A program made the position numbers and the translations under genes. A DNA stretch of 20,000 bases, taken from positions 112,464 through 132,463 of IMG/VR virus record IMGVR_UViG_3300042940_001453; one strand, written 5' to 3'. Positions 16,354 to 19,696 of the stretch are shown piece after piece. The notes below the pieces were generated by a model. That model made no database searches. It was not told where the DNA came from and worked only from the letters and a program-made list of their open reading frames with translations. Position 1 is the first letter of the stretch; each line of letters begins with the position of its first letter. This stretch comes from an uncultured virus (IMG/VR IMGVR_UViG_3300042940_001453). Its lineage: Duplodnaviria > Heunggongvirae > Uroviricota > Caudoviricetes.

Positions 16354-16539
16354 TTACTTAGTTGGATCACCTATAGAAGCATCTTCGACAATCGCTTTAA
16401 TTTCATTTTCGATTTCTTTCATGCGTTCTTTGTAGCCAGCAGCTACATCTTTAAAATCTTTCTTTACATGCAAAAGATTTTCGGTTAGTTCATATACTTT
16501 CTTTTCGGCTTCAGCCTTTGTTAATTTAATATTACTCAT
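16354..16539 (-). CDS. Small coiled-coil hypothetical protein
   Basis: 61 aa. ATGA overlap with the upstream stop. Confidence 0.7.
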   Translation of the reverse strand: MSNIKLTKAEAEKKVYELTENLLHVKKDFKDVAAGYKERMKEIENEIKAIVEDASIGDPTK

Positions 16540-16946
16540 AACTTTTTTAAGTCTATAATTTGTGTTACTGATTCTATCGGTATATAACTAGTAACATAAT
16601 TACCTGGATCTACATTTTTTAAATCTGGTAATTTACTTTTATCTACAGCTACTATTATACCCTCTTTTTTGTCTCTGTAATTAACCAACGCAAATCTAGC
16701 TGCCAATTTAAAATCACTTGCTAGATAACTTCCCGTAATGTTTCGAGTGTTGCCTCTACCTTTTGACGTAACTTTACCAGTACTCTTTAGAATATTATAT
16801 TCTTTCTCAGACATTCCTCTATATAATTTCGTACTGTCAGTGGGAATTTTATCCAATTCATCCGCAATATATTGTAATTTTCCAGTTGGTTCCCATACTA
16901 GATAATCATATATGCTGGATTCGTATAATAAACTATATCGTTTCAT
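16536..16946 (-). CDS. ADP-ribosyltransferase-fold protein (putative)
   Basis: LYRGM...SYLASD..LAARFA...GIIVAVD...YV...IP pattern of ART/Tpt1-like folds. Start reassigned to ATG 16946, 5 nt after TATTTATA (16952-16959), giving 136 aa. Confidence 0.55.
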   Translation of the reverse strand: MKRYSLLYESSIYDYLVWEPTGKLQYIADELDKIPTDSTKLYRGMSEKEYNILKSTGKVTSKGRGNTRNITGSYLASDFKLAARFALVNYRDKKEGIIVAVDKSKLPDLKNVDPGNYVTSYIPIESVTQIIDLKKL

Positions 16947-16971
16947 TAATCTATAAATATACTTATGTATA

Positions 16972-17187
16972 ATGGAAGACATTAATTTTCACCAAGTTAG
17001 TATAAATAACCACGAAATTACAGTCTGGGCAAATAGATTTGTGGTACTAAGACATCCAGAAAAATGTGATTTATATGAAGATGATTGTTGTAGAGAAAGA
17101 ATTACGAAGTATTTGATTGAAGAAGGTTATATCAACGATAGTGGAGTGTTAATCATTGATAGTTACATTGATTTTGAATCCGAATAA
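16972..17187 (+). CDS. Small acidic hypothetical protein
   Basis: 71 aa. TACTTATG variant motif 4 nt upstream. Stops just before the tmRNA 3' end. Confidence 0.65.
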   Translation: MEDINFHQVSINNHEITVWANRFVVLRHPEKCDLYEDDCCRERITKYLIEEGYINDSGVLIIDSYIDFESE

Positions 17188-17189
17188 AA

Positions 17190-17574
17190 TGGTGGACGCG
17201 GGCGGAGTTGAACCGCCGTCTTTAACAGATAACTTACATCAGACTACACGCTTATATATTTTAAATTGTTAGGGAATAATAATGAAAAATATCTAAAAAT
17301 ATTACCCTTAAGATTTACTAATATCTCGACCATTTACGCAAATCAAATATTTGGTCCAGTCCAATAATTTTCACCCAACACAAATATCAGACTTCATTGT
17401 ATTGAATGTGCAACAACTTAGGCTGCAAGGGCTACAACGTCATCGTAAGAGAAGTCATAGCTAACTACGTTATCTTCAGCAGTTAATGTTTCGATAGGTG
17501 TATTAAAGAGGCCAACTATCATCCTCTACGTGCCTAACATACGTGTACTATTAAATCGATACCAGTACGCGCCC
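17190..17574 (-). ncRNA. ssrA: tmRNA (tag AEDNVVSYDFSYDDVVALAA*)
   Basis: 5' GGGCGCG pairs with 3' CGCGTCC-ACCA, giving G3:U70. T-arm GGCGG-TTCAACT-CCGCC. Tag ORF 17480-17418 follows TAACT and ends ALAA-TAA. Confidence 0.95.
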
Positions 17575-17670: not shown

Positions 17671-17690
17671 GCTCTAATTAACAATATATA

Positions 17691-18488
17691 TTAGTGAAAT
17701 TTGTGAAATTTCAAATATTTTTTTAACTGACAAATTACATCACTTTCAAGTCCATAAATCAATTTTATATTATTCTCCAAAATAACTCTGGACAGTTTAT
17801 ATTCATCTTTTTTCAATTTAAATTTATTTTTTGGATCTAGGTAAATATTATATTTTGGTAAATAAAAATCCGGATAATATCTTCTTTTTTTCCCACATAT
17901 GTCCGTCCAAATGAAATTTATTTTTCTATCTCTTTTCCATTCAATTGAATTATTATCCAACCATTTAGCTAAATTAACTTCCCAGCTTGAATCCATCCAT
18001 ACATCTTTATATTTGAATTTTTTATAATTCGTTTCACCGCCACAATTCGGATTTGCGGCAGAGTTTTGACTAAGTAATACCGATAAACATTTTCTGGAAC
18101 AAGTTTTCGTTTCGTTTCTTTTTTTCGGAAACTTTATTTTACATATTACACATAATAGTTCTTTTTTTGGCTGACTCGCATAAAACTTTTTAAGCGATTC
18201 ACTGGTAGTAGATACATCAATCTTTGATTGAGAATATCTTTTAGCACAAGTTATGTTGCAACATTTTTTATGACTTTTATGTGTAGTAGATAAAAACTTT
18301 TTATTACAACACAGACACTCTCTTTCTATCTCAATATGTTTTATCCGAGCCCCAGCGGTAGACTTTCCACAACATCTTGATGTGCAATAGAAATTTGAAT
18401 TTCCATTTTTGATTTGCCTATTATATTCGGCCTTATTTTTCAGGAAAGATATTCCACATCCATTACATTTTAATTCTATTTGTTTCAC
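17691..18488 (-). CDS. Free-standing (homing-type) endonuclease: Cys-rich Zn-finger repeats plus PD-(D/E)XK domain
   Basis: 265 aa, GTG start. Three CxxC...C(S/T/N)xxC units. C-terminal 'DSSWE...W...YYPDFYLP..NIYLDPK'. Inserted within the tRNA array. Confidence 0.7.
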   Translation of the reverse strand: MKQIELKCNGCGISFLKNKAEYNRQIKNGNSNFYCTSRCCGKSTAGARIKHIEIERECLCCNKKFLSTTHKSHKKCCNITCAKRYSQSKIDVSTTSESLKKFYASQPKKELLCVICKIKFPKKRNETKTCSRKCLSVLLSQNSAANPNCGGETNYKKFKYKDVWMDSSWEVNLAKWLDNNSIEWKRDRKINFIWTDICGKKRRYYPDFYLPKYNIYLDPKNKFKLKKDEYKLSRVILENNIKLIYGLESDVICQLKKYLKFHKFH

Positions 18489-18547
18489 AGATATAAATAT
18501 ACTGGTGGAGACAAAAACGATTCGTTCTTTCCTCTAAACTTAGAAAT

Positions 18548-18623
18548 TGGTGGAGCAGATGGGAGTTGAACCCACAATCTTCACTTTGCAAAAGTGGTGC
18601 ATTGCCAATTATGCTACTGCCCC
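18548..18623 (-). tRNA. tRNA-Ala(TGC)
   Basis: GGGGCAG/CTGCTCC acceptor with G3:U70, loop TT-TGC-AA, ACCA end. Confidence 0.92.
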
Positions 18624-18631
18624 ATTTAAAA

Positions 18632-18660
18632 ATCTTACACCAATACATAGTATAAGTCAA
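18632..18660 (-). promoter_or_regulatory. Sigma70-type promoter upstream of tRNA-Ala
   Basis: TTGACT-N17-TAAGAT, ending 8 nt before the tRNA 5' end. Confidence 0.65.
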
Positions 18661-18676
18661 ATCAAAAAACAAAAAT

Positions 18677-18853
18677 TGGATGATCGTGACTTGCGAATAT
18701 ACGAGGATTTCACTGGTCGTTCCATATTTCGATCAAGTCCAACGGCACTGTGCGCACAGAAACCATAAACTTAAATCGAATGTCTATCTCGTCAACTTCA
18801 GTCTCATCTACCTCCTAATGGCAGAGTGCTATAATTCTATACACCAACGATCA
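18677..18853 (-). ncRNA. 177-nt tRNA-like RNA (UAG anticodon loop) with a ~105-nt structured insertion in place of the T-loop
   Basis: Perfect 7-bp acceptor TGATCGT/ACGATCA + T + CCA. D-stem GTGT/GCAC. Anticodon arm CTGCC-ATTAGGA-GGTAG. T-stem GACTG/CAAGTC encloses a long rod. Confidence 0.65.
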
Positions 18854-18864
18854 AATCTAAAACT

Positions 18865-18983
18865 TATCCCAGACACCTTGGCGGTTTTATGGGCATATTT
18901 AACCCACAGATTATTAGCCGAACACAGCCGTTGGTTATTGTTTCGGACCTAGCCAAGTTCAAACCTCTACCATTGTCTGATAT
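18865..18983 (-). ncRNA. Candidate structured ncRNA (multi-stem, ~115 nt)
   Basis: Nested helices TCAGACA/TGTCTGG, CTTGGC/GCCAAG, CCGAA/TTCGG and GTGGG/CCCAT. GC-richer than the flanking spacers. Confidence 0.45.
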
Positions 18984-18988
18984 AAAAA

Positions 18989-19065
18989 TGGTCGGGGTGA
19001 CAGGACTTGCACCTGCAGCTTCCTGACTCCAGATCAGGCCGTCTCCTAATTGACAATACACCCCG
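18989..19065 (-). tRNA. Atypical tRNA-Pro(TGG)-like
   Basis: CGGGGTG/CACCCCG-A-CCA acceptor. Arm CCTGA-TCTGGAG-TCAGG with C33, A37 and G38. T-loop TGCAAGT. Confidence 0.7.
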
Positions 19066-19072
19066 ATTAAAA

Positions 19073-19146
19073 TGGTCAGAAAGACGGGATTCGCACCCGT
19101 ACCTCACAACCCAGAGTTGTGCGACTATATTATTATCTACTTTCTG
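19073..19146 (-). tRNA. Atypical tRNA, anticodon CTG (Gln) on a Pro-like C1:G72/A73 acceptor
   Basis: CAGAAAG/CTTTCTG-A-CCA acceptor. Arm CACAA-CTCTGGG-TTGTG. D-loop lacks GG. T-loop TGCGAAT. Confidence 0.65.
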
Positions 19147-19152
19147 ATTAAA

Positions 19153-19256
19153 TTGTTGTCGGTGTTTGATGAATGGATCTTTCGATCACTAGTTCTTACT
19201 CTTGTAACTGATGATCACTCATTACAATTTCTCTAAAATTACACCCTTAACCGACA
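19153..19256 (-). ncRNA. Candidate structured ncRNA (~100 nt) closed by a 7-bp helix and ACAA tail
   Basis: TGTCGGT/ACCGACA closing helix, ATGAGTG/CATTCAT, ATCATCAGTT/AACTAGTGAT, TAATTT/AAATTG. Confidence 0.45.
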
Positions 19257-19265
19257 TATATAAAA

Positions 19266-19339
19266 TGGTTGGGGATGATGGAATCGAACCACCACAAGCA
19301 GATTCAAAGTCTGCCGCACTACCATTATGCAAATCCCCA
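19266..19339 (-). tRNA. tRNA-Gln(TTG)
   Basis: TGGGGAT/ATCCCCA acceptor, loop CT-TTG-AA, encoded CCA. Confidence 0.92.
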
Positions 19340-19346
19340 GTTAAAT

Positions 19347-19420
19347 TGGAGCGGGTAGAGGGAATCGAACCCTCTCATGGGCTTTGGAAGAGCCCCAGGC
19401 TACCGTTACATCACACCCGC
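19347..19420 (-). tRNA. tRNA-Gly(TCC)
   Basis: Loop CT-TCC-AA, U73, encoded CCA. Confidence 0.92.
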
Positions 19421-19426
19421 TTTAAA

Positions 19427-19519
19427 TGGCGGAGGCGAAGGGTGCTGCCCCCTCAGTGGCTTTTAGACCACGGCAGTTTAGCAAACTGCTGTAGAAACCT
19501 GACTATCTACGTCACCTCC
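19427..19519 (-). tRNA. tRNA-Ser(GCT), non-canonical T-loop
   Basis: Loop TT-GCT-AA, long variable arm GTGGT/GCCAC, G73, T-loop GGCAGCA. Confidence 0.82.
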
Positions 19520-19563
19520 ATAAAATTTTGACAAACTCCGATTTCTTCAAGAGACGATAACTT

Positions 19564-19592
19564 ACTATATCAGTCTTCGGTTCCATTGTCAA
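19564..19592 (-). promoter_or_regulatory. Near-consensus sigma70-type promoter within the tRNA array
   Basis: TTGACA-N17-TATAGT with an extended -10 TG. Confidence 0.7.
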
Positions 19593-19609
19593 GTGGAGTT
19601 GTATTAAAA

Positions 19610-19696
19610 TGGCGGAAGCAGTAGGACTCGCACCTACGAGGGTTTATGGCCCCAGGCGTTTTCAAGACGCTTTCCTCGACTAACCGGACTACTTCC
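19610..19696 (-). tRNA. tRNA-Ser(TGA)
   Basis: Loop CT-TGA-AA, long variable arm, G73, encoded CCA. Confidence 0.85.

What the first reader, a model, noticed from the sequence alone, without database searches (positions are those of the whole stretch)
18503..19606. tRNA array interleaved with several non-tRNA structured RNA candidates
Seen: most tRNAs here are separated by only ~6-15 nt of A/T. Four larger gaps (18677-18853, 18865-18983, 19153-19256, 19530-19602) are each filled by a self-complementary element. Each is closed by a 7-8 bp terminal helix, most with short AT linkers like those around the tRNAs. Established: phage tRNA clusters can harbour other stable ncRNAs (T4 species I/II, GOLLD, ROOL). 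Inference: this is a polycistronic RNA cassette in which tRNA processing releases several uncharacterised small RNAs together with non-standard tRNAs. It may be a translation-takeover or anti-defence module.
Basis: partly seen in the sequence, partly recalled or inferred. Interest (0 to 1): 0.7.

Follow-up and report, generated by a model that had tools for sequence, protein, structure and literature searches.

The report
Non-tRNA structured RNAs in phage tRNA-array
Between the tRNA genes of an uncultivated lake phage lie four conserved non-tRNA modules, three of them folded RNAs kept by compensatory mutations (one is shaped like a tRNA but cannot read codons), of the same unexplained kind as the small 'stable RNAs' of phage T4.

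Summary
The four gaps exist as described, on the minus strand of a phage tRNA/tmRNA operon. The window is the end of a 132-kb, about 45% complete virus record.

- **E1 (18677-18853)** is a real RNA family: 29 distinct sequences and 9 base pairs with compensatory changes. It has a 7-bp acceptor-like stem, an unpaired U and an encoded CCA. It has no conserved anticodon loop, and a long arm stands in place of the T arm.
- **E3 (19153-19256)** is also supported by covariation, in 6 pairs.
- **E4 (19530-19602)** is supported by covariation in 3 pairs. It also carries a conserved sigma-70-like promoter.
- **E2 (18865-18983)** is nearly invariant. It has no covariation, but RNA-library contigs cover it.

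None of the four matches Rfam 15, T4 rnaC/rnaD, E. coli RNase P RNA or 50,697 GenBank phage records. Single-sequence folding z-scores are weak (-0.4 to -2.0).

Best reading: new families of phage tRNA-operon small RNAs, analogous to T4 RNA C and D. They are probably released by tRNA-processing enzymes. Their function is not shown; tRNA mimicry is the leading idea for E1. This scan had already found the E1 family on other DNA.

The parts
18677..18853 (-). E1: tRNA-shaped, non-decoding RNA. It has a 7-bp acceptor-like stem, an unpaired U and an encoded CCA, a D-like hairpin, and a second hairpin whose loop varies. A long irregular arm carries helix ACGAG/CUCGU and the loop UGAAAUC. This lineage also has a 53-nt hairpin insertion.
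   Evidence: 29 distinct homologues, 122-177 nt. 24 pairs, 99.4% of cells paired, 9 pairs with changes on both sides. On the unfitted MAFFT alignment: 6 pairs, 98.3% paired. No Rfam match at E<=10.
18865..18983 (-). E2: nearly invariant 119-nt module. The core is 18870-18979, closed by CAGACA/UGUCUG, with an internal hairpin GUGGGUU-AAAUAUG-CCCAUAA in the MFE fold.
   Evidence: 26 of 32 IMG/VR 17-mer matches are true copies. There are 14 distinct variants, all at least 95% identical. No covariation. Contigs of 4 of 4 RNA libraries cover it. In L049 it replaces a GNRA hairpin of a larger RNA.
19153..19256 (-). E3: 104-nt four-helix RNA. It has a closing helix, a second stacked helix, a 9-bp hairpin UUGUAAU../..GUUACAA and a tetraloop hairpin GAUC-GAAA-GAUC.
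   Evidence: 11 distinct variants, 27 pairs, 99.3% paired, 6 pairs with changes on both sides; 0 of 500 shuffles reach the covariation score.
19530..19602 (-). E4: 66-73-nt element always 9-12 nt upstream of tRNA-Ser(GCU). The structured core is 19538-19597: hairpin UCCA(CUUGACAA)UGGA, then helix CCGA/UCGG enclosing a covarying hairpin.
   Evidence: 11 distinct variants, 16 pairs, 100% paired, 3 pairs with changes on both sides. It precedes a Ser(GCU) tRNA in all 21 loci that have it.
19564..19592 (-). Sigma-70-like promoter inside E4: TTGACA, a 17-nt spacer ending in TGn, then TATAGT.
   Evidence: 11 of 12 consensus matches plus TG. One match in the window against 0.07 expected. TTGACA, TG and TAnnnT are kept in 11 of 11 variants.
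18632..18660 (-). Second promoter-like site (TTGACT-17-TAAGAT) in the 53-nt spacer upstream of tRNA-Ala.
   Evidence: The spacer is conserved in 22 of 57 related loci at 86-100%.
19610..19696 (-). tRNA-Ser(UGA), with a long variable arm. ARAGORN missed it.
   Evidence: Read from the sequence. Rfam tRNA-Sec 31 bits, below the gathering score of 47. Relatives carry the usual GGUUCGAUUCC T arm.
19427..19519 (-). tRNA-Ser(GCU) with a non-standard T loop.
   Evidence: The MFE fold is a cloverleaf with a long variable arm, z -3.41. Covariation among 6 variants was seen by eye.
18989..19065 (-). Second tRNA-Pro(UGG). It has C at position 33 in this lineage.
   Evidence: Rfam tRNA 27.9 bits against a gathering score of 29. 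ARAGORN finds it at a relaxed threshold. Relatives have U33 and covarying stems.
18503..18547 (-). Hairpin ending in ACCA. It is a duplicated 3' end of tRNA-Ala at the edge of the endonuclease gene cassette, not an independent RNA gene.
   Evidence: the same duplicated end occurs in L008 (cassette present) and in L038 (cassette lost, scar left).
17691..18488 (-). Endonuclease-like ORF (265 aa) inserted in the array.
   Evidence: Weak PHROG matches to HNH or other endonuclease families, E 1e-5 to 4e-14. No Pfam or NCBIfam match.
17190..17574 (-). tmRNA at the 3' end of the array.
   Evidence: ARAGORN and Rfam, 118.6 bits.

Best explanation
The stretch is part of a phage tRNA/tmRNA operon in which four non-tRNA modules are co-oriented and co-transcribed with the tRNAs.

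E1, E3 and probably E2 are small structured RNAs of families not in Rfam 15. They are of the same kind as T4 RNA C and RNA D.

E1 is derived from, or modelled on, a tRNA. It keeps the acceptor stem, the discriminator base and CCA. It also keeps hairpins where the D and anticodon arms would be. The second hairpin has no conserved 7-nt anticodon loop. The T arm is rebuilt into a long arm that still holds a T-stem-like helix and a T-loop-like UGAAAUC.

Inferred mechanism:
1. The precursor is cut by the host tRNA-maturation enzymes, RNase P at the 5' side of the acceptor-like helices and 3' trimming down to the encoded CCA.
2. That releases E1, and by their closing helices E2 and E3, as stable RNAs.
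3. E1 then acts as a non-decoding tRNA mimic that occupies a protein which recognises the acceptor end or the elbow of tRNAs.

E4 is a short structured leader of tRNA-Ser(GCU). It also holds an internal promoter.

Shown here: the structures, their conservation, the strand, and presence in RNA libraries. Inferred: processing, stability and function.
For: E1.
- 29 distinct sequences, with 9 of 24 pairs compensated and 99.4% of cells paired. 0 of 500 shuffles reach the count of compensated pairs, compensated cells or the covariation score. That alignment is fitted to the model.
- On the unfitted MAFFT alignment of 24 sequences, 6 pairs are compensated and 16 of 500 shuffles reach that count.
- 24 of the 26 distinct sequences listed end in UCCA.
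- After E1 itself, the best matches of the E1 model are true tRNAs aligned end to end, but they are not significant (E 0.27-3.9).

E3 and E4.
- E3 has 6 of 27 pairs compensated. One hairpin has three different Watson-Crick stems: GAUC/GAUC, UGCC/GGCA and UGUU/AACA.
- E4 has 3 of 16 pairs compensated.

Strand. Many G-U pairs would be A-C on the other strand.

RNA libraries. In 4 of 4 freshwater or river metatranscriptome runs, contigs cover E2.
- One 398-nt contig joins E2, tRNA-Ala, tRNA-Gly and the tmRNA.
- Contigs spanning 19424-19615 join tRNA-Ser(GCU) with the whole of E4.
- A contig carries the short form of E1.

E2. All 5 transitions at positions paired in the predicted fold are C-to-U or A-to-G, which keep a pair on this strand. 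This is my own count, post hoc, with small n.

Precedent. T4 carries rnaC and rnaD plus the homing endonuclease segB inside its tRNA cluster. Their roles are unknown (PMC3014915, one passage read).
Against: - Folding energies of the single sequences are not significantly better than shuffles.
- E2 has no covariation. Its near-invariance may reflect recent exchange of array segments. The block E3-Pro2 is 99-100% identical in L047 and L048, whose anchor protein is only 72% identical.
- The RNA evidence is contigs only. It gives no ends, no strand and no levels, and DNA carry-over in the libraries is not excluded.
- No processing site, aminoacylation or protein partner is shown.
- E4's conserved TTGACA-17-TGnTAnnnT could mean that it is mainly a DNA element.
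Confidence: 0.6

Rival explanations
1. E4 is essentially a DNA element: an internal sigma-70-type promoter with an extended -10 that drives tRNA-Ser(GCU) and the downstream genes. The inverted repeat around the -10 would have no role as a free RNA.
For: It is the best promoter match in 3 kb: 11 of 12 consensus positions plus TG. There is one match against 0.07 expected in the window. TTGACA, TG and TAnnnT are kept in 11 of 11 variants even though the hexamer's inner bases vary. E4 always lies 9-12 nt upstream of Ser(GCU).
Against: Three pairs covary, two of them in a stem whose 5' half lies upstream of any start site that this promoter would give. A protein-binding site would be conserved rather than compensated. 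RNA-library contigs run through the whole element to 19615. The motif is not enriched in the 132-kb record: 2 matches against 1 for the reversed control.
Confidence: 0.35
2. The modules are non-functional remnants, either decayed tRNA genes or scars of homing-endonuclease cassettes. They would be carried along by recombination between the A/T-rich linkers.
For: The array is a mosaic. E1, E2 and E3 are present or absent between close relatives, and gaps of about 900 nt hold endonuclease-like ORFs. A real scar exists next to tRNA-Ala. E2 shows no covariation.
Against: Compensatory changes in E1, E3 and E4 show selection on RNA pairing. E1 keeps long invariant loops across 29 variants. E2 is kept at 95% identity or more in 26 contigs.
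Confidence: 0.12
3. E2, and perhaps E3, is a selfish mobile module that inserts into hairpins or linkers of RNA genes. Its terminal inverted repeat CAGACA/TGTCTG would act at the DNA level.
For: E2 sits in at least two contexts. In the window, L007, L016 and L033 it follows tRNA-Pro. In L049 it replaces a GNRA-capped hairpin of a larger RNA, and that hairpin is intact in L053 and L062. It is nearly identical across backbones whose anchor protein is 71% identical.
Against: There is no target-site duplication and no associated transposase. tRNA genes in this array show the same presence/absence pattern. All substitutions at predicted paired sites keep pairing on the transcribed strand.
Confidence: 0.15
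4. E2 is a piece of a phage-encoded reduced RNase P RNA.
For: In L049 the sequence before E2 holds AGAGGAAGUUCGAUG and the sequence after it holds ACAGAACAUCGGCUACGG. These two could pair with one bulged U. The likeness to RNase P conserved regions is my recollection, not a test.
Against: No Rfam RNase P model matches L049 7900-9000 at E<=10 or the window. Local alignment of E2 and of the larger RNA to E. coli rnpB is no better than shuffles. The orthologous larger RNA of L053 and L062 lacks E2 altogether. The 5' part is absent from the window's 132-kb record and from L005 and L006.
Confidence: 0.07

Closest known systems
Phage T4 stable RNAs species 1 (rnaC, 139 nt) and species 2 (rnaD, 119 nt)
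   Same: They are small non-tRNA RNAs encoded inside a phage tRNA cluster that also holds a homing endonuclease gene (segB). Their function is unknown (PMC3014915, one passage). The sizes are similar.
   Different: No homology was detected. The E1 covariance model does not hit the T4 region. Profile HMMs of E1-E4 give nothing below E 0.2. The one local likeness, between E2 and rnaD, lies in rnaD's variable hairpin and is not shared by the rnaD family.
Canonical tRNA (Rfam RF00005)
   Same: E1 has a 7-bp acceptor stem, one unpaired base and CCA. It has hairpins where the D and anticodon arms would be, and a T-stem-like helix with a UGAAAUC loop.
   Different: There is no Rfam tRNA match at E<=10. 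The loop of the second hairpin varies from about 4 to 11 nt and has no conserved anticodon. Extra helices and 25-80 inserted nucleotides lie in the T-arm region.
Bacterial Y RNAs (YrlA) that mimic tRNA
   Same: They are non-coding RNAs with a tRNA-like module. I saw PMC4201824 only as a search listing and the start of its abstract.
   Different: No Rfam Y-RNA-type match. In E1 the RNA's own two ends form the acceptor-like stem with CCA. No Ro/Rsr gene was seen in the window.
GOLLD and ROOL RNAs
   Same: They are structured RNAs often found near tRNAs in phages. I saw PMC12286853 only as a search listing and the start of its abstract.
   Different: Those RNAs are several hundred nucleotides long. 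There is no Rfam match in the window at the gathering score or at E<=10.
tRNA-shaped phage RNA with a rebuilt T loop
   Same: It is the same family as E1, sharing 42 of 58 short words. I reached the same reading independently.
   Different: It lies on another genome. That report's own evidence was not visible to me.

Membership tests
tRNA (RF00005) | Score at or above the Rfam gathering score of 29 bits | tested here: not met
   E1-E4 give no tRNA match even at E<=10. Pro2 scores 27.9 bits.
tRNA (RF00005) | 7-nt anticodon loop with a conserved U33 and a fixed anticodon | tested here: not met
   The loop of E1's second hairpin varies in length and sequence among 29 variants.
tRNA (RF00005) | 7-bp acceptor stem plus discriminator base plus CCA | tested here: met
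   E1 only. The stem has 2 compensated pairs, and 24 of 26 listed variants end in UCCA. E2 and E3 have no CCA.
T4 rnaC / rnaD families | Detectable sequence or structure homology to T4 species 1 or 2 | tested here: not met
   An rnaD family HMM built from 8 T-even sequences gives no hit on 14 E2 variants at E<=100.
T4 rnaC / rnaD families | Stable, processed RNA that accumulates in infected cells | not testable with these tools
   Only assembled contigs of RNA libraries were available.
Sigma-70 promoter (E4) | -35 and -10 hexamers at 16-18 nt spacing, conserved in relatives | tested here: met
   TTGACA-17-TATAGT with TG. The key bases are kept in 11 of 11 variants.
Sigma-70 promoter (E4) | A primary transcript start downstream of the -10 | not testable with these tools
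   No raw reads were available.
RNase P RNA (RF00010 and relatives) | Match to an Rfam RNase P model, or similarity to E. coli rnpB | tested here: not met
GOLLD / ROOL / any Rfam 15 family | Match at the gathering score | tested here: not met
   Only tRNA and tmRNA match in the window.

The most novel reading that the evidence does not exclude
The array carries a set of decoys for host enzymes that act on tRNA.
- E1, with its acceptor stem, CCA and elbow-like fold but no anticodon, would sponge a host defence or processing protein that recognises the acceptor end or the elbow of tRNAs.
- E4 displays the loop CUUGACAA and a second CUUGA. Both resemble the CUUGAAA anticodon loop of the neighbouring tRNA-Ser(UGA). 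E4 would sponge an enzyme that attacks or modifies that anticodon loop.
- The C33 variant of tRNA-Pro would be an escape form of the same conflict.
Probability: 0.12. Interest if true: 0.8.

Novelty: new variant of a known kind. Interest (0 to 1): 0.55.

Why it matters
Small stable RNAs in phage tRNA clusters have been known in T4 for about fifty years without a function. Here, conserved and covarying but unrelated families fill the same niche in a lineage of large freshwater phages. One of them is clearly built on a tRNA frame. This suggests that tRNA-operon passenger RNAs are a general feature of phages and not a T-even oddity. The alignments and covariance model made here could be used to find members in cultivable phages, where function can be tested.

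Tried and rejected
- **E2 as a homologue of T4 rnaD.** The local score is 27 against 14.2 +/- 2.0 in shuffles (0 of 200). The likeness lies in rnaD's variable hairpin, and the rnaD family HMM finds no E2. Rejected as chance.
- **E2 as a miniature paralogue of the larger RNA of L049 and L062.** Only a shared 10-mer was found, reached by 8 of 300 and 23 of 300 shuffles. Not supported.
- **E2, E1, E3 or the larger RNA against E. coli rnpB.** Nothing scores above shuffles, apart from a 13-nt match in E1 reached by 10 of 200 shuffles.
- **E1 as an intron-bearing tRNA.** Even without the inserted part, extra helices remain and the loop of the second hairpin is not a conserved anticodon loop.
- **Plus-strand ORFs 18680-18952 and 19211-19531.** They are antisense to the RNAs. 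The length variants of E1 differ by numbers that are not multiples of three.
- **Search for more divergent E2 copies.** The genome-contig scan gave 35 matches to the 17-mer. Only one (L255, a 3-kb contig with tRNA-Ala) is E2, and L268 looks coding. A second viral scan gave only contigs already known.
- **RNA-library cover.** E3 had almost no cover, with depth 0-3.5. Bins 17682-18457 had none, but contigs join across that ORF, so relatives in those samples lack it. Depth is a single figure per contig, so neither result says anything about expression.
- **Mis-specified structure.** I entered the inner hairpin one column off. Only helix 1 of that output is used.
- **Terminator scan.** 0 sites found against 2.0 expected.
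- **The 148-aa ORF next to the tmRNA.** No family or PDB match.
Full report
**Setting.** The window is the last 20 kb of a 132,463-base virus record that CheckV rates 45% complete. Its genes include tail-fibre proteins, PhoH and Hsp20. The closest GenBank phages share less than 36% identity in PhoH, and a 790-aa protein has no match at all. Lake-water metagenome runs hold the sequence.

From 19963 down to 17190 the minus strand carries a tRNA array. ARAGORN finds 8 tRNAs and a tmRNA, and Rfam finds 7 tRNAs and the tmRNA. By reading the sequence I add three more:
- tRNA-Ser(UGA) at 19610-19696.
- tRNA-Ser(GCU) at 19427-19519. Its MFE fold is a cloverleaf with a long variable arm, z -3.41.
- A second tRNA-Pro(UGG) at 18989-19065. 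It scores 27.9 Rfam bits and has C33 in this lineage, against U33 in relatives.

These rest. With them, the units are separated by 0-14 nt of A/T-rich linker.

**Single-sequence tests.** None of the four gaps matches any of the 4,227 Rfam families, even at E<=10. Their folding energies are only slightly better than dinucleotide shuffles:
- E1: z -1.34.
- E2: z -1.77.
- E3: z -1.98.
- E4: z -0.38.

By that criterion alone the finding would be weak.

**Relatives.** I used the 148-aa ORF next to the tmRNA as an anchor and fetched 57 related IMG/VR loci with 69-100% protein identity. Pattern scans added more.

The array is a mosaic. tRNA genes, the four modules and endonuclease-like ORFs of about 900 nt come and go between close relatives. 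Blocks can be nearly identical between otherwise distant backbones. E3 plus tRNA-Pro, for example, is 99-100% identical in L047 and L048, whose anchor protein is 72% identical. High identity alone is therefore not evidence of constraint.

**E1 (18677-18853).** I found 29 distinct homologues of 122-177 nt.
- On an unfitted MAFFT alignment of 24 sequences, RNAalifold predicts 24 pairs. Six of them have changes on both sides, and 98.3% of cells are paired. 0 of 500 shuffles reach the compensated cells or the covariation score, and 16 of 500 reach the number of compensated pairs.
- On the model-fitted alignment of 29 sequences, 9 pairs are compensated and 99.4% of cells are paired. A fitted alignment leans towards the model.

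The compensated pairs fall in four helices:
- The 7-bp terminal stem (G-C 18, A-U 11 at one pair).
- The second hairpin.
- The 3-bp helix next to the terminal stem (GAC/GUC against GGG/CCC in L123, L126 and L150).
- The helix ACGAG/CUCGU.

24 of the 26 variants listed end in U-CCA. The second hairpin sits where an anticodon arm would. Its loop ranges from about 4 to 11 nt and has no conserved triplet, so the RNA cannot decode.

The strand CUCGU is preceded by UGAAAUC. From memory, this fits the T-loop pentanucleotide pattern U-(G/U)-N-R-A. Its partner ACGAG lies 25-80 nt upstream, so the T arm appears to be split by an insertion. The inner part of that insertion is a variable hairpin, which is 53 nt long in the window.

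After E1 itself, the best matches of the E1 covariance model are genuine tRNAs aligned end to end. They are not significant (E 0.27-3.9), and there is no match to T4 rnaC or rnaD. An earlier report of this scan on another genome (e1-6119511) describes the same family in the same way. The scan has therefore seen E1 before.

**E3 (19153-19256).** There are 11 distinct variants, including two divergent ones (L053 and L229). The fold has 27 pairs in four helices. 99.3% of cells are paired and 6 pairs are compensated. 0 of 500 shuffles reach the covariation score, and slid controls give at most 1 compensated pair. The small hairpin occurs as GAUC-GAAA-GAUC, UGCC-ACAG-GGCA and UGUU-GCAA-AACA. E3 ends in ACAA, not CCA.

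**E4 (19530-19602).** There are 11 distinct variants of 66-73 nt. E4 always lies 9-12 nt upstream of tRNA-Ser(GCU).

One of its pairs is broken in 5 of 11 variants, and nothing in it is compensated (helix 1).

The supported fold has three parts:
- A hairpin UCCA(CUUGACAA)UGGA.
- A helix CCGA/UCGG (C-G 9, U-A 1, U-G 1).
- An enclosed hairpin whose stem occurs as AGAC/GUCU, GGAC/GUCC and GAAC/GUUC.

In this fold 100% of cells are paired and 3 pairs are compensated.

The same element holds the best promoter-like site of the region. It reads TTGACA, 17 nt, TATAGT, with TG before the -10. The pattern occurs once in the window against 0.07 expected. Its key bases are kept in all 11 variants. It is not enriched in the rest of the record, with 2 matches against 1 for the reversed control.

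I read E4 as a structured leader that also carries a promoter. The purely DNA reading keeps 0.35.

**E2 (18865-18983).** 26 of the 32 IMG/VR matches to its 17-mer are true copies. The 14 distinct variants are all at least 95% identical, so neither of two candidate folds gains covariation support.

Two weak points favour an RNA:
- One double change keeps a pair in the alternative helix CCGAA/UUCGG.
- All five transitions at predicted paired sites are of the kind that preserves pairing on the minus strand. This is my own post-hoc count.

Contigs of 4 of 4 RNA libraries cover E2.

E2 is modular. In L049 it stands where the orthologous larger RNA of L053 and L062 has a short GNRA-capped hairpin.

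My tests do not support filing E2 there:
- No Rfam RNase P match.
- No similarity to E. coli rnpB above shuffles.
- E2 is absent from two orthologues.
- The larger RNA is absent from the window's own record.

**Expression.** Only assembled contigs of four metatranscriptome runs could be laid on the stretch.
- They cover the tmRNA, several tRNAs, E2, E4 and the short form of E1.
- One 398-nt contig joins E2, tRNA-Ala, tRNA-Gly and the tmRNA. It skips E1 and the endonuclease ORF, so it comes from a relative.
- Contigs spanning 19424-19615 join tRNA-Ser(GCU) with the whole of E4.

This fits polycistronic transcription. It gives no ends, no strand and no levels, and DNA carry-over is not excluded.

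**Comparison with what is known.** T4 encodes rnaC (139 nt) and rnaD (119 nt) at the end of its tRNA cluster, together with the homing endonuclease segB. Their roles are still unknown (PMC3014915, one passage). The window shows the same arrangement, but with unrelated sequences.

Blastn finds nothing for E1+E2, E3 or E4 in 50,697 GenBank phage records.

Two full-text searches turned up no description of these families. They were not exhaustive. I read passages, not the supplements, of a catalogue of 8,495 candidate structured RNAs from IMG/VR (PMC10690425). That catalogue may list them.

**Verdict.**
- Three of the four modules are structured RNAs under selection.
- E1 is a non-decoding tRNA-shaped RNA.
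- E2 remains a conserved, transcribed module of unproven structure.

Processing by tRNA-maturation enzymes and a role as a tRNA mimic are inferences.

Noticed in passing
window 18503-18547 (-), with 17691-18488 (-): The hairpin ending in ACCA is a duplicated 3' end of tRNA-Ala at the border of an endonuclease-like gene cassette. Relative L008 has the same duplication with the ORF present. L038 has lost the ORF and keeps a 115-nt scar holding both ends of the cassette.
   Followed up: partly
window 18989-19065, 19427-19519, 19073-19146 (-): Non-standard tRNAs. Pro(UGG) has C33 where relatives have U33. Ser(GCU) has a short T loop that is not the usual UUC type. Gln(CUG) has no GG in its D loop and is not found by the Rfam tRNA model.
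   Followed up: partly
L025 7736-7850; L033 1015-1128; L039 628-766; L025 7536-7656; L053 4876-5013: Related arrays hold further non-tRNA modules that the window lacks. One is a family of about 100 nt with three hairpins. One is a 121-nt unit with an acceptor-like stem, CCA and GGUGAAAAUCC. One is a 138-nt unit closed by a 7-bp helix.
   Followed up: no
L049 8243-8700; L062 (minus strand) 578-826; L053 6098-6400: An RNA-like region of about 300-400 nt lies inside the arrays of relatives. It has a covarying GNRA hairpin (CAGUA-GCAA-UACUG against CAGCA-GCAA-UGCUG). Rfam and comparison with rnpB did not confirm that here.
   Followed up: partly
L047 279-336; L049 1921-1977: E1's motif GGAAC-loop-GUGAAAUCC recurs in another element about 6 kb upstream of the array.
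   Followed up: no
window 16536-16982 (-): A 148-aa ORF directly downstream of the tmRNA is conserved in 57 related loci. It has no Pfam, PHROG, NCBIfam or PDB sequence match.
   Followed up: partly
window 18632-18660 (-): A second promoter-like site (TTGACT-17-TAAGAT) ends about 9 nt before tRNA-Ala. Relatives have TTGACA-type sites at the same place after E1.
   Followed up: no
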